A stretch of DNA of 64,000 bases from Candidatus Thorarchaeota archaeon (lineage in GTDB: Archaea > Asgardarchaeota > Thorarchaeia > Thorarchaeales > Thorarchaeaceae). This document shows, in pieces, positions 7,219 to 48,031 of the stretch. Under the pieces are notes generated by a model. The model was not told the DNA's origin. It did not search any database and saw only the letters and a program-made list of their open reading frames with translations. The stretch spans positions 128,001 through 192,000 of the forward strand of contig JAWOEX010000028.1 of NCBI GenBank assembly GCA_046482545.1. Reading direction: 5' to 3'. Position 1 is the first letter of the stretch; each line of letters begins with the position of its first letter. The position numbers were made by a program, and so were the translations under genes.

Positions 7219-7824
7219 TCATTGATTAACAGATTGTGAAATCTCTTCCAAACTCCTTCCAGTCATTACTGATGCTGGTTCTTCCTCCAGGATGTCCCGT
7301 TCTGGTTCAGCCTTTTCATCCTTCATTTTAATCAGAAGCCACCTTGCATTCTCTCCACTCCCGGTTCGTATCAGGACGTATCCCCCTTCCAGTTTGTTAC
7401 CCTCCAACCAGACCTCAACCTTTCCGTCCTTCAGGCTCTCAGTCATGTTCTTACGGGCTTCCGAATCCTCCTTTTCAGCTCGGAGATTACGATACGTTCC
7501 ATAATCCCAGACCATTACCGTTCCTGCGCCATACTCTCCCTCGGGGATAACTCCCTCAAAATCTCCGTATTCTAGGGCGTGATCTTCGGTAGGCACCGCC
7601 AAACGTTTAGTTGACGGGTCGGTGGACGGCCCTTTTGGAACAGCCCACGATTTCAGCACGCCTTCAATCTCAAGCCTGAAATCATAATGCAAATTGCTCG
7701 CATCGTGCTTTTGTATAACGAAAATTGGTTTCTCTGATGAGCCACTCCTACCTCCTTCAGGCTCGGGAGTTTTTGAAAAATCTCTTTTGCTACGATACTC
7801 TGCAAGCGGGTCTTCTTCATCCAT
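7219..7824 (-). CDS. Stand-alone DNA ligase D 3'-phosphoesterase (PE) domain protein
   Basis: YRSKRDFSKTPEP, FVIQKHDASNLHYDFRLE, SWAVPKGPS, EDH, YGAGTVMVWD. Confidence 0.93.
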   Translation of the reverse strand: MDEEDPLAEYRSKRDFSKTPEPEGGRSGSSEKPIFVIQKHDASNLHYDFRLEIEGVLKSWAVPKGPSTDPSTKRLAVPTEDHALEYGDFEGVIPEGEYGAGTVMVWDYGTYRNLRAEKEDSEARKNMTESLKDGKVEVWLEGNKLEGGYVLIRTGSGENARWLLIKMKDEKAEPERDILEEEPASVMTGRSLEEISQSVNQ

Positions 7825-7856
7825 CCTCTGTTTCTCCGGCTAAAAGGCTCCCAGTA

Positions 7857-9935
<2,079 letters not shown>

Positions 9936-11536: not shown

Positions 11537-12319
11537 ATGGGGAAAATCCTGTTGAGACAGCTGCTTTCCCGGGTCGGTACTTCACTCGTAATACTGTCAG
11601 GATTCCTGGTCGCTTTGACCGTTATCGGCGATGTCATGCTGGGTTTTGAAGTTCCTCAAGCTCAGGCTCCATTCATGATTTTAGCTTCTCTTGCGTTCAT
11701 TATCGGCGGGACAGCATGTTTCAATGCTCAAGTCCAGGACCGGTCACTTCTCATAACAGCGGGGCTTGTCGTTATCGCGATTTCACTCTACTTAGTCGAG
11801 CCTTTCATCTTGTCACTTTTTACCCTAGCTTCAGGTGCAGTTGTCATGTCTGCTGGATTCGTGGGAAGGCACCAACCACCAGAGACCCCGTTTGCTTTTG
11901 ATCTTTCGAATGACTGGCATTTTCGGAATGCCAAAGGAAACGAGAATCGCGGTAGCCTTCAAGCAGCAACATTTGTTGACGACAATCTTGTCGTTTACCT
12001 GCTGATGTGGAACAAATCCGACAGATATGTTGACGATGCGTTCCATAGAATCAGACAAGAGGTCATGGAACCGAGGTCTGAAAATATCAGCTCTGGCTCT
12101 GCTGAAATCTACGGACACGATGCGGAGTCATTCAGTGGAACGAGCACTGACGGACATTACTTTGAAGTGTACAAGTATCATTGCAGACCCTCTGAAATGA
12201 ATATACTTCTGCAGATTACCTCTCAGGGAGGAGAAGCAGCAGTAAGGGAAGGCCAAGAGAAGGTTATATGTCATGGATCGTTTGACGACAGCGGAGAGAA
12301 ACAGAGACAGGATTCGTAG
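11537..12319 (+). CDS. Hypothetical protein: four N-terminal TM helices plus a soluble C-terminal domain
   Basis: Hydrophobic first ~110 aa followed by a globular domain; no family recognised. Confidence 0.7.
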   Translation: MGKILLRQLLSRVGTSLVILSGFLVALTVIGDVMLGFEVPQAQAPFMILASLAFIIGGTACFNAQVQDRSLLITAGLVVIAISLYLVEPFILSLFTLASGAVVMSAGFVGRHQPPETPFAFDLSNDWHFRNAKGNENRGSLQAATFVDDNLVVYLLMWNKSDRYVDDAFHRIRQEVMEPRSENISSGSAEIYGHDAESFSGTSTDGHYFEVYKYHCRPSEMNILLQITSQGGEAAVREGQEKVICHGSFDDSGEKQRQDS

Positions 12320-12374: not shown

Positions 12375-12875
12375 CTTCTGTTTATCTCCTTTCAAGATAA
12401 CCTGTTTCTTACAGTTTTAGGAACTGTGTGAAACTTCTGTGTTCCACCCTTCCCCTGCCAGCGTCGCCGCTCCCAAGGTACCCGTAGGCCTTGAGTCAGC
12501 AGGGGCTTTGTCCGTGTTCACTGGAATAGGATTCCTCCCTCGGTCCAGGCTTCTGTCTGCTGTCGTCATCCTGGGTCATCACTCCCGGCAACAGCGAGGT
12601 CTTCCACAGTTCTTGCCACGGCGTGGTCATGATCACCCACCTCAGCTTTGTCGCCGCCGCTGAGGAGGTCATTACAGACGAGGTGAACAGCCGCGGACGC
12701 CCCAGAGCTCGATGAATCTCCTGTATGGAGAGTGGGAACTTCTGTTTAGAAGAGCCTGTCTTCCTTGCAGCTTTCGGCCGCGTGCGTCACGCTACAGCGC
12801 TAGCCCACTTGCCTAGTCCTACTAGACCGGACTCCCGTACTAGGCCTAATGAACGCCCCCTGCTTGAAAGATAAT
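12375..12875 (-). ncRNA. Putative large structured non-coding RNA of unknown family (ends approximate)
   Basis: GC-rich intergenic island with many nested helices; C(UACG)G and GCGA/GAAA loops read correctly only on the minus strand; four ACAGAAG motifs; BRE/TATA-like GAAAAGTGTAAAATAT at about 12897-12912 on the minus strand. Confidence 0.7.
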
Positions 12876-13049
12876 CGTTACGGGAAATCTTACAGATATT
12901 TTACACTTTTCCACTCGGATTTTTTTAGGATTCTTGTAAAACTTATCCTTTCAAGAAATCAAAGCTATTAGGTATGCTCCAACCTATTCCCCAAGCTATA
13001 TATCCCGCTACGAAATGCTTGACGATACATATCGTTGCGGTGTAGAAAA

Positions 13050-14525
13050 ATGTCAAACAATCCAGATACCAAGAAAGTGGCTGCGTTTATTGTTGTTGTA
13101 CTTGTGATAGCTGGAGCTGCATTTAGTGTCATCATATTGATGGAACCAAGTGTGCAACCGGGTGGTCCAGAAGTTCAAATCGCCACAGCAGGTGAAACTT
13201 TGGCAATCACATTGAACGAAATCAAAGCAATGGAATCCCTAGAAGGATCTACATCATTTCAGAACACATACGGAAATGTAAGAGGACAGGGAAATTACAG
13301 TGGTGTCAAAGTTGCAGACTTAGTTGAGCTAGCTGGCGGTATGGAAAGTGATCAGATACTTACAGTTAATGCGACAGATGGATACAGCGTTACCTTCCCA
13401 TATTCCAAGGTCTTTCCAAATTCTACAGCTCGAACGATTCAGGGTGATATGATCCTTGCATACGAGTACAATGGAACCGAAGTTCCTGACTGGGAAGATG
13501 GCTACAGAATTGTGTTCCTCACTGATGACGGGTACTACTCCAACGAGGATGCTCAACAAACCACTCCGTCCGAATACTTTGCAGGAGCGGCGGGGCCAAC
13601 CTGCATCACAAATGTTGACACACTGAGAATTGAAACACCGGAACCGACAGCACTCAGTATCGCACGGGAAGAAGGAACTACTGAATTCACCATGAAGGAA
13701 TTGAAGCAGATGGATACCATAACCGGACTGGGAGGTTACAAGAGATCCTCAGGCTCTCTTGAGGGGCCGCACAACTACACGGCCGTAACAATGGAGACCA
13801 TTCTGAGTTCTACAGGAACATTGCCCGTCAACTATACCATAGAAGCAATGGGTAGCGACGGATATACTACCTACTACAACAGCACACAAGTTGAATCAGG
13901 TACTTTCCAAGGCTACGACCCTGACACAGGTGAAGATATTGGAACGATAGTCTGTAATCTCTCAATCGCTTACGCCGAAAACGGAGAGCCGCTTCCTTCA
14001 GACATAGGTCCACTACGCGTTGTCACCATCCACGAAGACGGCTATTTCACCGACGGTCACTTCTGGAATAAAGAAATCGTGCAGCTGACCGTGGTTGATG
14101 AAGTGCCAGATTGGCAAATCGAGCTGGATGGCGTGGAACATCTCAACATGACGCATGACGATTACTATGCCGGTGCTTCGTGTAGCCACCACACAACAGA
14201 AATAGAGATGAATGGCGACACCTTCAAGGGTTTGCCATTGTACGTCCTTGTCGCGGCTATGGATGGTGGTAATGATACCCACTACACATTCAATTCAAGC
14301 CTAGCTCTAGCAACCCATTACAATGTCACCCTCTATGATGGTGAAGGCAATAATGTCACTTTATGCATTGATCAGATTGCGGACAACACCAGCATTGTCG
14401 TGGCAGGCTGGAAGAACGGGCAGCTGCTTGAAGGAGATGAATGGCCTATCAAACTCGTCACGCCCAATGCTACGGCTGTACTTGACAGCATAACCAAGAT
14501 TGAAATGATTGGCTGGGATGAATAA
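13050..14525 (+). CDS. Membrane-anchored extracellular protein with three tandem molybdopterin-oxidoreductase-like domains
   Basis: N-terminal TM; repeated Y-x-G/A-V...A-x-DGY...LAY/IAY-x-x-NG...GPLR/WPIK blocks. Confidence 0.7.
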   Translation: MSNNPDTKKVAAFIVVVLVIAGAAFSVIILMEPSVQPGGPEVQIATAGETLAITLNEIKAMESLEGSTSFQNTYGNVRGQGNYSGVKVADLVELAGGMESDQILTVNATDGYSVTFPYSKVFPNSTARTIQGDMILAYEYNGTEVPDWEDGYRIVFLTDDGYYSNEDAQQTTPSEYFAGAAGPTCITNVDTLRIETPEPTALSIAREEGTTEFTMKELKQMDTITGLGGYKRSSGSLEGPHNYTAVTMETILSSTGTLPVNYTIEAMGSDGYTTYYNSTQVESGTFQGYDPDTGEDIGTIVCNLSIAYAENGEPLPSDIGPLRVVTIHEDGYFTDGHFWNKEIVQLTVVDEVPDWQIELDGVEHLNMTHDDYYAGASCSHHTTEIEMNGDTFKGLPLYVLVAAMDGGNDTHYTFNSSLALATHYNVTLYDGEGNNVTLCIDQIADNTSIVVAGWKNGQLLEGDEWPIKLVTPNATAVLDSITKIEMIGWDE

Positions 14526-15471: not shown

Positions 15472-18210
15472 ATGCTTGACAAGTCTGAACAAGACAACCA
15501 GGAGGCAGGCCCATTGGATACTCATGAATGGAGGCGAGAATTGGATAAACTCTCTGAAGCGAAGAGCACACTGGTGCACTTAAATCCCAAAGCTGATGAG
15601 AAACTGAAACGGCCAATGCGCCATTTGTACGACGTGTTCGCCAAGCTGAGTCAGACTGAAGAAGAAATCGAAGAAACCTCAGGCATAAACATTCTCAAGA
15701 AGAGGCGTTTGTCAGATCAAATTGAAAAGGTTTCTGGAGAGCTTAGAGAGGACTTCATGAGAGTTGTTAGAGATTTGGCCGACGAGGTGCGACAAGAATA
15801 CCATCAGACTACTCAGATGGCTCAGCGCCTCCAAAACATATCTCCGGCCAAAACCAAGTCAATAAAAGCACTTGAATTTCCTCCTGTTGGAGCTGGAGAC
15901 GTAAAAGATTTCCAGAGACTCTACAGTTTCCTCAAGGAATATTCTGAAAAATATACATCATTACATAGAGAAGTCGCAAGACAGGTAGGGGCATTACTTG
16001 ATGAAAATAAACGTACACTTGAGACCTATGAAAGACATATCACCATAGACCGGGGCGAAATCTCTGCAACAGTATCAATAGACAGCGTTGAAGGATTACA
16101 CATTGCAGATCTTGTCGAGGCAATGGAGAAACTCAAGGCTGAGAAGGCATACCTTGACGGACGGAAAGACGAAGTGAGCAGAATGCTCGCAGCCTCTCTT
16201 GTGTCTGAAGTTGAATCATTGCAGGCCTCAGTTGATACGGCATCTCGATTGGGATTGGAACTTCCAATTGACTACCCAAAGGAAATCAGAAGTATTGCCA
16301 GGGATGCCACACAAACGAACAATCTCACCTCCCTTGTGAGCTTGGAGAGTCAACTGCACTCTTCCAAACAAAAGATAGCGAACATGCTTAGAGACAAAAT
16401 CATCAATATCAAACATAGTGTGACCTCAAGGATTGTTGAAGGAGGCATACCTACCAGTTCGGATATTATTCCAGAAACTCCGACAGCGGTTCCTGAAGGT
16501 GATGACGTAGCTACTTTGCTTTCCGCCTATCAAAAAATGATTGAGTGGCAAGGGCAGGTCAAGATTGGGCTAAAAGATCGAATACAGGAAGTACTCGAGG
16601 AAATCGAGAAAGCAACTGAACGGCCTGAAGACGTAGGGATTAAGGATATCCTAACGGTCAGAGAATTTCTTGCGAATTCAAAGAAGAAGTTAGAGAAAGC
16701 CCAAATCGATGATATGATCAAGATATATCTGAAAGCTACCAACATGCAAGAGGAATATCGAAAAACAGTCACTGAGAAAATTCGAGAGTACTTGCAGCGT
16801 TTCAATGAACTTGCAACTTCAGCTGATAGAGTACTTGATTATGCACAACTCAGCAAGAAAGCACCAAAAGTGGATGAACTACAGGGTGGGTTGGTGTACT
16901 TGCTAAAGTCCCTAGACAACCTTCGGGATGCTGTTGAGAGTGGCGTGACTACATTTAGAGACGCAGCAAAGCAAGAACTCGAGGCCATTATCAACGACCT
17001 CCAAACTATCAAGCCAGAATATGCCGAGCTATTCCTTCCGATAATAGTTGACTTGGAAGATGGCGCTACGACAATAGAAGAACTTGATGAATTTGGTGCA
17101 ATTCGTTCTGAGATGCGAACAATCAAAGACAGTATTCTTGTGAAGGCCAAGGAGGCACTAGAAAATCTCAGGTATAGGCTTGGTGTCAAGATTCGTCTTG
17201 CTGCAGCTAAACTGATGGGTGCTGGAGTGACAATTCCGGGCGAGGTACAAGATTCAATCAGTGAACTGAACAATGTCGGTGTCGCAGCTGATTCTGTATT
17301 GAAATTGCCATCAAGAGCAAGAAAGATGATTGAAATCTATCAGAATGATATTTCCGGCGAAATTGTTGAGTTACTAGTCGACGAAGTCGATGAACTCATA
17401 GAATCATTTGACCAGGCTGCCAAGGTCGGCGTGCCGATGGATAAAGAGCTATCCAGATTGCGGAATATCAAACACAATCCCCCTCGGGAATTGGAAGCAG
17501 CAGCAGAGACATATGACGAACTGCGTACCCTAACCTCTTCAGAAGCACTTCAGAAGAAAATCCGCAGCAGGGCTGATCAGGCGTATGACCAGCTCAAAGA
17601 TGCAATCTCTATTTTCGAGCAGGAAGGGATGACTGATTTTGTACAGCGTTTGAATAATTTGCTGGATCAAGTCCCTGAAGAGATAGCAAGCGATGATACC
17701 GAAATCACTGAGACTCTTGATGTATGCCTTACTATGGCGAATATTCAAGAAGAGATGCTTGATGTGATTAAGAATATAGCAAACAAAAACCAAGAAACAT
17801 TACATGAAAATCTTTCAGAAGAGAGCAAGTACTACTCCACAATACGTCGAGTTTATGAAAGACATCCAAAAGAATTCAGCCAGAAAGTTTTCCCGCTTAG
17901 TCGCATGGAATCTCTTCAGGAGGAACTTCAGAATGCAGAAATGCTGGACACAGCAATAGCAAGATTCAACGAAATGAACGATCTCCAGACTAGGTGGGGG
18001 CAACAAGCGAAGAAAATGGATGATTGGCATAAATCACTGCGCATGTATATGTCAGGCTTTACCCCTGGGGCACCAGTTGATGACAGGAACAAGTTCATTG
18101 AGGACGCTAAGAGAGAAATCAAGGACAATTACAGCAAGGAAGACATAGTTTCTTATCTCTCTTGGGCGATGGACGTCATAGCTGACACAATGGTAAAGAA
18201 AAGAGAATGA
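15472..18210 (+). CDS. 912-aa all-alpha coiled-coil / helical-repeat protein
   Basis: E/K/L/R-rich amphipathic helices broken by Pro-containing linkers; recurring A-x-x-(L/V)G(L/V)x(L/I/M)P/D turns; no TM and no Walker motif. Confidence 0.85.
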   Translation: MLDKSEQDNQEAGPLDTHEWRRELDKLSEAKSTLVHLNPKADEKLKRPMRHLYDVFAKLSQTEEEIEETSGINILKKRRLSDQIEKVSGELREDFMRVVRDLADEVRQEYHQTTQMAQRLQNISPAKTKSIKALEFPPVGAGDVKDFQRLYSFLKEYSEKYTSLHREVARQVGALLDENKRTLETYERHITIDRGEISATVSIDSVEGLHIADLVEAMEKLKAEKAYLDGRKDEVSRMLAASLVSEVESLQASVDTASRLGLELPIDYPKEIRSIARDATQTNNLTSLVSLESQLHSSKQKIANMLRDKIINIKHSVTSRIVEGGIPTSSDIIPETPTAVPEGDDVATLLSAYQKMIEWQGQVKIGLKDRIQEVLEEIEKATERPEDVGIKDILTVREFLANSKKKLEKAQIDDMIKIYLKATNMQEEYRKTVTEKIREYLQRFNELATSADRVLDYAQLSKKAPKVDELQGGLVYLLKSLDNLRDAVESGVTTFRDAAKQELEAIINDLQTIKPEYAELFLPIIVDLEDGATTIEELDEFGAIRSEMRTIKDSILVKAKEALENLRYRLGVKIRLAAAKLMGAGVTIPGEVQDSISELNNVGVAADSVLKLPSRARKMIEIYQNDISGEIVELLVDEVDELIESFDQAAKVGVPMDKELSRLRNIKHNPPRELEAAAETYDELRTLTSSEALQKKIRSRADQAYDQLKDAISIFEQEGMTDFVQRLNNLLDQVPEEIASDDTEITETLDVCLTMANIQEEMLDVIKNIANKNQETLHENLSEESKYYSTIRRVYERHPKEFSQKVFPLSRMESLQEELQNAEMLDTAIARFNEMNDLQTRWGQQAKKMDDWHKSLRMYMSGFTPGAPVDDRNKFIEDAKREIKDNYSKEDIVSYLSWAMDVIADTMVKKRE

Positions 18211-18222
18211 ACAAGGAGGACA

Positions 18223-19614
18223 ATGACAATGCAAGGAATGGGATCACCAAGCTCTGAAGGCGATTCAGCGCGAGCTGCCGAGATATTTGCAATAGGAATA
18301 GGCGAATGCGGCTCAAATATCGTTGGTTCATACCTGCAATCAAGTAGAGACAAGAAGCTGCCCTCCAGAGTCAGAGGTTACATGCTCATCAACACAGATA
18401 GAGCAGACTTGACAAAAGTGCGGGATAAATACGGAATTCCCAAGGATCACACGCTCTTGTACGGAGCGAGCGAAATCGGTGTTGGTGGCAGATTCATGGA
18501 TGGTTATGAAGCTGTAATGAATTCGAAAGACATCATCTTCGATCAACTTGCCGGACTCGGCTTTGAAGGAGTCTCGGGATTTTGCATCTTTACCAGCCTT
18601 GGTGGGGGTACAGGATGTGGAGGTACCCCGGCGCTCATCAAACTCTTGAAGCAGAGATTCCAAGAAGAAGAAGGCAGGCGAATATTCGTCTATGTCATAG
18701 GAGTGCTTCCATTCGAAGGACAATCCAGCGAAGCTCTCAACTCGCTGTGGGGAATGTCCAAACTGCTTAGAGAACAGCTGCAAGAGCGTGGCGCTGATTT
18801 GACTATTCTTCTTAGCAATCGTACTATGCTGAAGCGAATCCTACAGTCGAGGAGAACAGACAGCGTAGACTACCTTCAGCGAGAACTTGAGATTGATATT
18901 GCCAACATAAATTCAATCGAGACAATGGTTCCTTCCACCCTAGAGTCCGCCGCTCCACAGGATGTAAGGACCGAACAAGCATTCGTAGAACTTGTCAATC
19001 CCATGGCGCTTGATGTAATTGATGCTATGCTTTCTCCCGGTGTTTACGAGCCTGAGAAAGATGTGTTTCCAACTACTGACTTGGCAGATTACAGTCGGCG
19101 TCTCGACCCTGTAGTAATACCTGCACTCTATCGGGACGCGGGCTTGATTCCTGATGCCGGTAACATGCAAAACCAACTCAAATCCATGGTGAATTATACG
19201 GCGACACAGCAATCATATGCTGATATAGGAGAGCAGCCAAATGCTGAATCGGTCTTCTATGTTTTCAAAGGGTCACGTCGAATCGCAAAAGCAGAGTATG
19301 GATCGTATCTTAAGGAGGCGTTGAGCCAGTTCACTGCACCAGGTGCGGCTATCACTCCATGCTATGTCAAATACGAAAATGAAACACCCACCGATCTATT
19401 GCTTCTTTTTGGCCTGCCTAAGATTCCCGAACTTGTCGAAATTGTCAAGGAAGCTACACAACTGGTAAATCTCCATAGCGGTAAATCGCCGCTCAAGCAG
19501 TCGTGGTTCAAGCGGTCAAAAGGTGTTGAACGGAGAGAATTGGTTAACGCCATCAACGACATTCGAGAGCTGTTCGGCTACTACGCTGATTTCCAAACCC
19601 AACCAACTGAATAG
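18223..19614 (+). CDS. Divergent tubulin/FtsZ-superfamily GTPase, tubulin-like
   Basis: EIFAIGIGECGSNI, INTD, GVGG, GFCIFTSLGGGTGCG signature, VLPF, T7-like TDLADY, tubulin H11'-H12-like C-terminus; AGGAGG RBS in a 12-bp gap after the upstream gene. Confidence 0.9.
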   Translation: MTMQGMGSPSSEGDSARAAEIFAIGIGECGSNIVGSYLQSSRDKKLPSRVRGYMLINTDRADLTKVRDKYGIPKDHTLLYGASEIGVGGRFMDGYEAVMNSKDIIFDQLAGLGFEGVSGFCIFTSLGGGTGCGGTPALIKLLKQRFQEEEGRRIFVYVIGVLPFEGQSSEALNSLWGMSKLLREQLQERGADLTILLSNRTMLKRILQSRRTDSVDYLQRELEIDIANINSIETMVPSTLESAAPQDVRTEQAFVELVNPMALDVIDAMLSPGVYEPEKDVFPTTDLADYSRRLDPVVIPALYRDAGLIPDAGNMQNQLKSMVNYTATQQSYADIGEQPNAESVFYVFKGSRRIAKAEYGSYLKEALSQFTAPGAAITPCYVKYENETPTDLLLLFGLPKIPELVEIVKEATQLVNLHSGKSPLKQSWFKRSKGVERRELVNAINDIRELFGYYADFQTQPTE

Positions 19615-46364: not shown

Positions 46365-46705
46365 ATTGGGAACAGTAAAGTGAGATTCATAGGTTGTGTC
46401 AGCATGTTGCAATTGCGGCGGATGACCTTCCCTTTGTCTTAACTTGAATTTATACAGAGAGAGAAGCGGTAGAATATGGGGCGCATAGACGATAAATATG
46501 AACCAATTGTCTATTGCTTTATCAGATACTTTCAGAGTTCGTCAGTTTCTATAGATAGGCCCCATAGGCTGTAAGCTCAACAGACGTTATTGAACGGTCG
46601 GTAGCTGCAGCTATTGTTATGGGGTTTGGGATGCTAGGTCGATCAGTTCATGTCAAATCTTACACTCTGACATGCCGATTTGTTTTGGGTTTTGTAGGAT
46701 TTGCA

Positions 46706-48031
46706 TTATTCTAGAGTTTGCTCACCCATTACATTCGAGCTTCCGCGTTCAAATTGCAGTCGAAACAACGTCCCAACTACTTGTTCATCCTCAACAACGT
46801 CTTGAGCTTCCATTGTTATATCGCAAATCTCGGCAAGACCTCGGATGAGAATGATACCAAGACCTACTCCCGGCGCAGACCGACTAGAAAGCGAATCAGG
46901 GTTGTTGAGAAAATCTTGAACCTCAGTAGGTAGGCCCCCAGCTCTATCTAGAATCTCTACCATCACATGTTTCTTCGATTTTCTGAATGCTCTCACTGTG
47001 AGGCTTTTTGTTCCATGTTTGAATGCATTGTCGAAGATATTCCAAAACATCTCTTTGACTAACTTACACGAGAGAATGTACACATTTTCTTCAATCTCGA
47101 CTGTTATCCTCTCAGGTTCGATATCATACTCACGTATAACTCTCTCAGAGACTCCTTCTAGAATTCCTGCAAGATTCAGGGGGGTCTCCATAGCTTGTAC
47201 ACGTGTTACTGTTGCAGTTAAGTACCGAATTTCCTCCAGAAAATCCATCATGTCCTTGACAACCTCAGATGCCATTTCAAGCCACATTTCATGATCAGTC
47301 TCTGAGGTAATAGCTTGATCAATAGCTCCATTAAGATTGCCCGCATAATTACGAATATCATGATTTAGAATGCTCCCCAGCAATTGAGAGATCTGATGTT
47401 GAGCACTCAAATTTTCAGCCGTGGTCTTGATAAAGAATGATAAGAGACCCGAACCAGTTGCCATGACACTAATTGATAAAAGCAGGACGTGAACACTCAA
47501 TAGGTTCAACAATGAAAACGGTATAAAAAGTAGTGTTGAAACGCCCCAAAGGACAAATCCAACATATGCAGTCCAAAAATCTAAGCTTTCCGCATCGTTA
47601 TCTCTTCTAAATTGTTCTGCTGAATACCAACATGATAAGGCTGAAGGCACCCCGACAACTGTATAGGCAATATCATAGGAAACATCAAGTACAATTCCAA
47701 CGCCTACTATGGCAAGTCCAATTCCTACGGCTAGAATGTACATCAACAAGCTACTGCCTTCTCTCTGATGTTTATTCGCTCCATCAAATAGAAAGATGGA
47801 TCCTAGTAGAATACCTGAGGTAGCTAAGCTATCGGTTATTTCAAGACCAGCAGTACCTATCATAATACTGAGGGCAGTTGTAATACTGTAAACCATCCAG
47901 CCTGCTGCCCATAGTTTGTAGCGAACTCCGGTTGAATATCTATACAGCCCATATGATACTAATGCGATGAAAGCAACAAGGCCTGTAAACGATATCACCA
48001 CTGCAGGCTCAAAAACAGGAACAGTCTGCAA
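46706..48031 (-). CDS. Histidine kinase with N-terminal seven-TM sensor region
   Basis: LNHDIRN H-box, NIFDNAFKHG, DRAGG, GVGLG; start uncertain (TTG at 48031, or the longer ORF to 48187). Confidence 0.85.
   Translation of the reverse strand: MQTVPVFEPAVVISFTGLVAFIALVSYGLYRYSTGVRYKLWAAGWMVYSITTALSIMIGTAGLEITDSLATSGILLGSIFLFDGANKHQREGSSLLMYILAVGIGLAIVGVGIVLDVSYDIAYTVVGVPSALSCWYSAEQFRRDNDAESLDFWTAYVGFVLWGVSTLLFIPFSLLNLLSVHVLLLSISVMATGSGLLSFFIKTTAENLSAQHQISQLLGSILNHDIRNYAGNLNGAIDQAITSETDHEMWLEMASEVVKDMMDFLEEIRYLTATVTRVQAMETPLNLAGILEGVSERVIREYDIEPERITVEIEENVYILSCKLVKEMFWNIFDNAFKHGTKSLTVRAFRKSKKHVMVEILDRAGGLPTEVQDFLNNPDSLSSRSAPGVGLGIILIRGLAEICDITMEAQDVVEDEQVVGTLFRLQFERGSSNVMGEQTLE

What the first reader, a model, noticed from the sequence alone, without database searches (positions are those of the whole stretch)
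12375..12875. Large, highly structured, unassigned non-coding RNA on the minus strand
Seen (plus-strand coordinates): a GC-rich island with a 17-bp interrupted helix 12502-12521/12683-12703 and hairpins at 12811-12845, 12640-12665 and 12559-12595. A multibranch domain is closed by 12731-12736/12804-12809. A three-way junction closed by 12452-12458/12499-12505 carries a C(UACG)G hairpin (12474-12493) and a GCGA hairpin (12460-12471), and there is a CGAAA loop at 12767-12781. The stable tetraloops read correctly only on the minus strand, and a BRE/TATA-like element precedes it at about 12897-12912. The loop GGGA-GUGAU-GA-CC resembles an L7Ae-binding K-loop. I could not fit RNase P, SRP, 5S, group I/II intron or riboswitch consensus sequences. 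Inference: a possibly novel large archaeal ncRNA.
Basis: partly seen in the sequence, partly recalled or inferred. Interest (0 to 1): 0.8.

Follow-up and report, generated by a model that had tools for sequence, protein, structure and literature searches.

The report
Gene-less TnpB guide-RNA jumping element
The folded RNA is real, but it is not a free-standing cellular RNA: it is the unusually long guide-RNA scaffold of a barely studied Asgard-archaeal jumping gene (a Cas1-like integrase plus a TnpB nuclease), carried here by a 553-base gene-less copy, one of about 30 in this genome.

Summary
Window 12398-12950 (minus strand) is a 553-bp mobile element flanked by a duplicated TCTTGA, absent at the same site in two congeners, with 32 full-length copies in this Thorarchaeota genome. 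Its 8.3-kb parent has the same ends and encodes a TnpB (rearranged RuvC, D243/E404/D438 invariant) head-to-head with a 1655-aa protein whose N-terminus has the Cas1 fold: the published but untested aCas1-TnpB loci. The finding is the left end fused to the ~390-nt RNA that overlaps the tnpB 3' end. The RNA fold is supported by compensatory changes and by G-U bias for the minus strand, and holds a canonical K-turn (84/91). RNase P and SRP lie elsewhere in the genome; no Rfam match. In ~30 of 32 tnpB loci the RNA's 3' segment matches, and co-varies with, a site abutting the tnpB TATA box, suggesting a fixed internal guide for self-repression; this copy has lost half of that segment. The scan found orphan scaffolds, aCas1-TnpB elements and the promoter-guide idea before on other DNA. 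Verdict: new variant of a known kind.

The parts
12951..12956 (-). Left copy of the duplicated target core (TCTTGA)
   Evidence: Identical 6-mer at both ends here; left and right cores identical in 25/34 copies vs 6.2 by permutation
12885..12950 (-).
   Evidence: Shared with the 8.3-kb parent and 58 left-end hits in the genome; protein-binding role is inference
12572..12884 (-). Fossil 3' codons of tnpB (about residues 445-543 of the parent), with stops and a frameshift; overlaps the RNA
   Evidence: tblastn 44% and 87% pieces; three-frame translation
12435..12820 (-). Conserved ~390-nt omega-RNA-like scaffold, about 20 helices; this copy keeps 120 of 134 consensus pairs
   Evidence: 5' end is a conservation boundary, not a mapped transcript end
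12510..12545 (-). Canonical K-turn (GA 12537-36; bulge AGU and GA 12522-18; C-stem 12535-31/12527-23)
   Evidence: Tandem G-A in 84/91, U at L3 in 83/91; C-stem holds the two top covarying pairs; L7Ae binding inferred
12452..12505 (-). Three-way junction with variable hairpin and conserved GNRA hairpin
   Evidence: Closing helix 95% canonical, GNRA stem 94%
12437..12609 (-). Long-range helix CUGUG 12609-05 / CACAG 12441-37 closing the 3' domain just before the putative guide slot
   Evidence: 99-100% canonical, all five pairs with two-sided changes
12417..12434 (-). Putative internal guide slot, truncated in this copy (GUUUC-ACA-CAGUU kept; the GUUCACUC part replaced by a 5-nt loop)
   Evidence: role as guide is inference
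12398..12416 (-). Right end of the element (AACTG-TAA-GAAAC-AGGTTA); can fold back on the guide slot
   Evidence: Sharp boundary in about 65 copies; 88 right-end hits
12392..12397 (-). Right copy of the duplicated target core (TCTTGA)
   Evidence: removing element plus one core gives a sequence colinear with two congeners

Best explanation
A non-autonomous (MITE/PATE-like) deletion derivative of the Thorarchaeota aCas1-TnpB transposon. SHOWN: it shares both ends with an intact 8.3-kb element, is an insertion at a TCNNGA site that is duplicated, and carries a conserved structured RNA that in the parent overlaps the last ~250-320 nt of tnpB and runs to the right end. INFERRED: (1) the giant Cas1-fold/PD-(D/E)xK/RecA-like protein recognises the ends and moves such copies in trans, Cas1-type strand transfer giving the 5-6 bp duplication (p~0.75); (2) the RNA is the scaffold that TnpB binds, processed from the tnpB mRNA in the parent, with L7Ae on its K-turn (p~0.85 for scaffold, ~0.6 for L7Ae); (3) the scaffold ends after the CUGUG/CACAG helix and the next ~23 nt are a fixed internal guide that pairs imperfectly with a site touching the BRE/TATA of tnpB, next to a conserved CTGACCT motif, so the RNP binds without cutting and represses its own gene (p~0.45); (4) this copy, lacking the tnpB promoter and half of that guide, is most likely a passenger or at most a decoy for TnpB.
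For: Copies and ends. Parent with matching CAGGA at both ends. TnpB: PF07282 E 2e-12, PDB TnpB/Cas12f hits; D243, G346, E404, D438 invariant in 58 homologs, the RuvC-II E-to-G rearrangement of PMC10691335. Partner: top 12 structural hits all Cas1/casposase, Z 8.6-12.6, next 6.4; RecA-like fold 634-937; head-to-head with tnpB in 23/30 loci. Empty sites. Duplication. Structure. K-turn. PMC10691335 describes aCas1-TnpB loci with a downstream GTTCACTCA motif; present in the parent and 47/51 relatives. Promoter match at 22-32 nt from the start codon in about 30/32 loci, cognate 26.6 vs non-cognate 24.0 vs shuffled 17.1; 18 shared non-consensus letters vs 7.1 by permutation; site abuts TATA.
Against: No transcript ends, RNP or activity data. 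Scaffold is about twice the usual TnpB omega-RNA length (own knowledge) and matches no Rfam omega-RNA family. Only one pair passes my tree-aware all-pairs test at E<0.05, 16 in the structure-restricted test. Cas1 identity rests on a predicted fold (rmsd ~4 A; Foldseek E 0.03; Pfam Cas1 in only 2/56 members at E 0.0075). Promoter permutation tests are not corrected for kinship, and many changes are one-sided (54 guide-only, 38 site-only). Gene-less copies break pairs more often than tnpB-linked ones (271/631 vs 215/847).
Confidence: 0.8

Rival explanations
1. Same element and scaffold, but classical homing: the scaffold runs to the right end, the guide is the host flank, and each gene-less copy programs TnpB in trans to cut its own empty site (rival to steps 3-4).
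For: This is the rule for IS200/IS605 TnpB, including omega-RNA-bearing PATEs (PMC10055086). Gene-less copies arose repeatedly (label needs at least 10 changes on the tree) and most keep the whole scaffold (32 copies of 535-584 bp vs 6 shorter).
Against: No conserved motif 5' of the duplicated core; if TCNNGA itself were the TAM, the filled right junction would carry TAM plus target and be cut. Relaxed pairing in gene-less copies.
Confidence: 0.3
2. The promoter match is a DNA-level inverted repeat bound by the aCas1 protein or a host factor; the guide position is unknown and the gene-less copies are inert passengers (rival to step 3).
For: The same AACTG-N3-GAAAC-AGGTYA motif recurs in the right end itself; GAGT-NN-ACTC is quasi-palindromic; co-variation of two binding sites can arise without RNA pairing.
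Against: The inverted match co-varies (p<2e-4) while the direct matches do not (p 0.31 and 0.06); solo tnpB loci do not break at the upstream site, so it is not an inner transposon end.
Confidence: 0.3
3. A domesticated, free-standing cellular ncRNA.
For: Strong fold, K-turn, family present in metatranscriptome contigs (weak).
Against: Absent at this site in two congeners, 92 family hits at scattered sites, target duplications, fossil tnpB codons.
Confidence: 0.04
4. The extra length hides a catalytic or splicing module (IStron-like intron or a processing ribozyme) that removes the element from transcripts.
For: Size, long-range helices and conserved single-stranded purines; IStrons join TnpB RNAs to group I introns (10.1101/2023.11.20.567912, abstract only).
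Against: No intron or ribozyme family at E<=1 or 10; this copy is intergenic; no joint skipping the element precisely in RNA contigs (absence not proof).
Confidence: 0.05

Closest known systems
aCas1-associated TnpB loci of Asgard archaea (Cas1H-Asgard-1/-2; Altae-Tran et al. 2023, PMC10691335; aCas1 from Makarova et al. 2020, CRISPR J, not held, cited through PMC10691335 and PMC8730458)
   Same: Asgard host, Cas1-like protein next to TnpB, repeats at the ends, hypervariable stretch followed by GTTCACTCA downstream of tnpB, proposed there as a possible guide.
   Different: The paper gives no RNA structure, length, K-turn, target for the guide, target duplication or gene-less derivatives in the text I could read (supplement not held). 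I could not confirm which of the two groups this is. This copy has lost both genes and the GTTCACTCA motif.
TnpB omega-RNA/reRNA and omega-RNA-bearing PATEs of IS200/IS605 (ISDra2, ISGst; PMC10055086; archaeal sotRNAs RF02656/RF02657, PMC12558985)
   Same: Structured RNA overlapping the tnpB 3' end and reaching the right end; gene-less copies mobilised in trans.
   Different: ~390-nt scaffold overlapping ~100 codons; K-turn; 5-6 bp duplication (IS200/IS605 make none); partner is a Cas1-fold giant, not Y1 TnpA; no TAM upstream of the insertion site; no Rfam match; guide possibly internal.
Casposons (Cas1 casposase + PolB; review PMC9939771)
   Same: Cas1-fold integrase, inverted ends, target duplication, some copies beside tRNA genes.
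   Different: No PolB; Cas1 lacks the N-terminal beta domain and is fused to nuclease and RecA-like domains; 5-6 bp instead of ~15 bp duplication; carries TnpB; dozens of dispersed mini-copies.
CRISPR-like regulatory RNAs (crlRNA; tracr-L of Cas9) and TldR repressors
   Same: Imperfect guide directing an RNA-guided protein to a promoter to repress it (10.1101/2024.10.29.618823 and 10.1101/2023.11.30.569447, abstracts only; tracr-L from PMC8730458 reference list and own knowledge).
   Different: Here the nuclease looks catalytically intact, sits in a transposon, and the guide is part of a single long RNA; repression is only inferred.

Membership tests
RNase P RNA / SRP RNA | Match to RF00373 / RF01857; single copy | tested here: not met
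   No hit on the window; both genes found elsewhere in the genome at 156.5 and 103.5 bits
Non-autonomous transposon (MITE/PATE-like) | Short, non-coding, multicopy, shares both ends with a gene-bearing element | tested here: met
   32 copies of 535-584 bp; ends shared with C28 8.3-kb element
Non-autonomous transposon (MITE/PATE-like) | Target duplication and empty orthologous site | tested here: met
aCas1-TnpB (Cas1H-Asgard) | Cas1 homolog adjacent to tnpB in an Asgard archaeon | tested here: met
   For the parent: Cas1 fold, adjacency 23/30, Thorarchaeota homolog names
aCas1-TnpB (Cas1H-Asgard) | GTTCACTCA motif after a variable stretch downstream of tnpB | tested here: met
   Parent and 47/51 relatives; 19/44 own copies; NOT in the window copy
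aCas1-TnpB (Cas1H-Asgard) | Placement in group 1 or 2 of the published TnpB tree | not testable with these tools
   Supplement and Makarova 2020 not held
TnpB omega-RNA | Overlaps tnpB 3' end and reaches the transposon right end | tested here: met
   Stop codon lies 252-321 nt inside the RNA in 38 of 40 loci
TnpB omega-RNA | Conserved secondary structure on the tnpB sense strand | tested here: met
TnpB omega-RNA | Cognate TnpB with RuvC triad and zinc finger | tested here: met
   D243, alternative E404, D438 invariant; RuvC-II E replaced by G; two CxxC
TnpB omega-RNA | Guide taken from the flank beyond the right end, TAM at the left flank | tested here: inconclusive
   No conserved TAM upstream of the core; an internal guide candidate competes
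TnpB omega-RNA | Pseudoknot next to the guide | tested here: inconclusive
   No covarying pseudoknot pair among top scores; motif too conserved for power
TnpB omega-RNA | Binds TnpB and directs DNA cleavage | not testable with these tools
   Needs RIP-seq and cleavage assay
IS200/IS605 | Y1 TnpA partner and insertion without target duplication | tested here: not met
   Partner is the Cas1-fold giant; duplication present
Casposon | Family B DNA polymerase gene within the element | tested here: not met
   Only three ORFs in the 8.3-kb parent, none with a Pfam/NCBIfam polymerase hit
K-turn | C-stem, 3-nt bulge with U at L3, tandem G-A/A-G, NC-stem | tested here: met
   12545-12510; 84/91 tandem GA, 83/91 with U; both stems covary
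   Fits only the GGAA-GUGAUG variants; this copy has GGGA; loop varies in distant loci

The most novel reading that the evidence does not exclude
A TnpB system whose ~390-nt K-turn-bearing (L7Ae-binding) RNA carries a fixed internal guide aimed at the tnpB promoter instead of borrowing the flank, inside a PolB-less Cas1 transposon whose single polypeptide unites Cas1-type strand transfer, a PD-(D/E)xK end-cutter and a RecA-like domain; dozens of gene-less copies per genome would act in trans as repressing or decoy RNAs that tune the nuclease.
Probability: 0.25. Interest if true: 0.8.

Novelty: new variant of a known kind. Interest (0 to 1): 0.5.

Why it matters
The aCas1-TnpB loci were flagged in 2020-2023 as a probable new transposon family with an unexplained downstream RNA region, and nobody appears to have tested them. 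This analysis gives the testable pieces: exact ends and target core, evidence of recent movement (empty sites, dozens of mini-copies that serve as natural minimal substrates), a covariation-backed RNA model with a K-turn, and a specific guide/target/TAM prediction. If the internal guide is real it is a natural self-limiting TnpB and a link between Cas1 transposition and RNA-guided nucleases, the two halves from which CRISPR-Cas is thought to have been built. As a single locus, the finding is ordinary selfish DNA.

Tried and rejected
RNase P or SRP: rejected. Circularly permuted RNase P, U3-like or C/D guide RNA, hammerhead, group I/II intron: considered from motif resemblance, no Rfam support. 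Folding energy as evidence: no signal on either strand. A longer (8-12 bp) duplication or homology-guided target choice: the window shows 11 matching bases and two other copies 10-11, but over 34 copies matches beyond the 6-bp core equal the permutation mean (59 vs 59.8; the window copy was missed by that pattern), so left unexplained. Guide equal to the last ~22 nt of the element: direct match to the tnpB upstream region not significant (p 0.06). Analogy of the TCACTCAC motif with the ACTCAT end of TnpB elements of family f5: dropped, those elements have their own inverted ends around CATG and no aCas1 was found there. Sequence searches for the giant protein gave nothing (Pfam, NCBIfam, PDB profile, ESM Atlas); only the fold did. 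Expression: only assembled contigs were available; two RNA-library runs cover the scaffold far deeper than the flanks and barely cover the left end where DNA runs continue, but depth sums all copies and DNA is present, so this is a weak hint and says nothing on this copy. Makarova 2020 and the PNAS supplement were not held. No covariance model was built (502 columns exceed the limit). No complex prediction was run.

Full report
Observation. The region is a GC-rich island (0.565-0.595 against 0.454 for the genome) between two plus-strand genes, 11537-12319 and 13035-14525. Rfam has nothing at gathering score or at E up to 10, and the genome has its RNase P and SRP RNAs on other contigs. Folding energy alone is no better than shuffles on either strand.

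It is a repeat. The stretch hits many places in its own genome and in 24 of 36 genomes of the same family, none of the 24 others searched. Profile searches give 58 left ends, 88 right ends and 32 full-length copies of 535-584 bp; 92 hits cover 28.7 kb. Boundaries are sharp. Each copy sits between two TCNNGA-type 6-mers; the two are identical in 25 of 34 copies against 6.2 expected; here both read TCTTGA (12956-12951 and 12397-12392). Whether the first T belongs to the element (5-bp duplication) or the target (6-bp) cannot be told. Removing the element and one core gives a sequence colinear with two congeners, which lack it. So the unit is 12398-12950 and it is a recent insertion.

The parent. 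An 8.3-kb element on contig C28 has the same two ends and a matching core on both sides. It encodes a 544-aa TnpB/Cas12f-like protein (PF07282 E 2e-12; PDB TnpB and Cas12f hits), a 224-aa unknown and a 1655-aa giant on the other strand. Homolog names place the host in Thorarchaeota. In 58 TnpB homologs D243, E404 and D438 are invariant and the RuvC-II glutamate is always glycine, the rearranged site that PMC10691335 predicts to be active. The giant lies head-to-head with tnpB in 23 of 30 loci. Its first 254 residues fold (pLDDT 92) like the helical catalytic domain of Cas1: the top 12 of 48,161 chains are Cas1 or casposase, Z 8.6-12.6, the next 6.4; E74, H186, D193 and D196 are invariant and are my candidates for the Cas1 metal site (inference). 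D438 and K462 mark a PD-(D/E)xK-like motif and 634-937 has a RecA-like fold. The domain was found in 36 of 59 family genomes and 2 of 191 others. This fits the aCas1-TnpB loci of PMC10691335, down to the GTTCACTCA motif downstream of tnpB, present in the parent and 47 of 51 relatives. The genome holds five open tnpB frames, four beside an open giant, so both proteins could act in trans.

The RNA. The window copy is the left end joined to the tnpB 3' tail (fossil codons) and everything after it. In tnpB-linked loci the stop codon lies 252-321 nt inside the conserved block in 38 of 40 cases, the position of an omega-RNA, but the block is about 390 nt (12820-12435). On 91 sequences (mean identity 65%) a 134-pair consensus is 90% canonical; a structure made from own-genome copies alone is 86% canonical in 49 relatives against 39-43% when slid; G-U outnumbers A-C 1337 to 407, fixing the minus strand. 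On a separate 52-row alignment 72 of 91 pairs have two-sided changes, 0 of 500 shuffles reach that. My tree-aware test is more sober: one pair at E<0.05 over all pairs, 16 when only the proposed pairs are tested. Helices after the stop codon covary too, so this is not only coding constraint. Gene-less copies arose repeatedly (at least 10 label changes) and break pairs more often than tnpB-linked ones (43% vs 25%), so their own function is doubtful; this copy still keeps 120 of 134 pairs.

Where is the guide? The classical answer, the flank beyond the right end, lacks a TAM: nothing is conserved 5' of the core. In about 30 of 32 loci it matches in inverted orientation at 22-32 nt from the start codon: about 5 matched bases, a 3-5 base mismatch, then 13-15 mostly matched bases; the site is preceded by CTGACC(T/C) in 24 of 31 and abuts the BRE/TATA. 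Cognate pairs score higher than non-cognate (26.6 vs 24.0; shuffled 17.1), and guide and site share 18 non-consensus letters against 7.1 expected; direct-orientation matches show no such effect. These tests ignore kinship; by eye about ten independent lineages show matched changes, and many changes are unmatched. A bound, non-cutting TnpB there would block its own promoter. A DNA-level repeat for a protein is the main alternative. The window copy keeps only GUUUC-ACA-CAGUU of this segment and lacks the tnpB promoter.

Mechanism, in order of certainty. Shown: mobile, non-autonomous, derived from the aCas1-TnpB element, conserved minus-strand fold. Inferred: moved in trans by the giant protein; RNA is the TnpB scaffold; K-turn binds L7Ae; internal guide represses tnpB; this copy is a passenger or decoy. 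Expression evidence is limited to assembled contigs and is a weak hint for the family only.

Comparison and verdict. It works like an omega-RNA-bearing PATE of IS200/IS605 (PMC10055086) but is not an IS200/IS605 member, nor a casposon (no PolB). It belongs with the aCas1-TnpB loci, described computationally and, as far as my searches went, untested. The scan has reported orphan scaffolds in this genome and aCas1-TnpB elements in others; those notes are leads, and the points used were retested here. New variant of a known kind; interest 0.5, carried by the RNA model, the K-turn and the promoter-guide prediction rather than by this locus.

Noticed in passing
window 46655-46707 (G000:C9:174655-174707), minus strand: A lone left-end fragment of the same element family with no RNA or right end after it.
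   Followed up: no
G000:C32:32738-34212: A left end with the start of the RNA and a 3' RNA piece with a decayed right end enclose an intact 388-aa membrane-protein gene: cargo capture, or a gene that landed in a mini-copy.
   Followed up: no
L034 (G000:C28:70485-72274): A 1.8-kb internally deleted copy keeping the 3' end of the giant gene and a frameshifted tnpB 3' half: an intermediate between parent and mini-copies.
   Followed up: partly
L045:1246-1317; also L047, L060, L062 and G000:C23 near 124230: Several full aCas1-TnpB or solo tnpB elements end right beside a tRNA gene, as casposons do.
   Followed up: partly
L033:5367-6041: A 224-aa ORF with no Pfam/NCBIfam hit precedes the giant gene in the parent and in L037 and L041.
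   Followed up: no
L067-L077, L083, L084 (family f5 genomes): Related TnpBs (34-39% identity) lie without aCas1 or any adjacent transposase, in short elements with inverted ends bounded by CATG and a different ~250-300 nt downstream region.
   Followed up: partly
window 12387-12397 and 12946-12956; G000:C18:4632-5191; C20:228517-236742: The flanking direct repeat runs to 10-11 bases in these copies although the family rule is 5-6; not significant over all copies, unexplained.
   Followed up: partly
L079 (G006:C23:1649-5606): Two tnpB genes back to back, each with its own scaffold and no giant gene between them.
   Followed up: no
window 7219-9914, minus strand: By sequence reading only: an NAD-dependent DNA ligase-like ORF (685 aa) followed by a LigD phosphoesterase-like ORF (201 aa), unusual for archaea.
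   Followed up: no
window 15472-19614, plus strand: A 912-aa coiled-coil-like ORF followed by a 463-aa tubulin/FtsZ-like ORF with a GGGTG motif (reading only).
   Followed up: no
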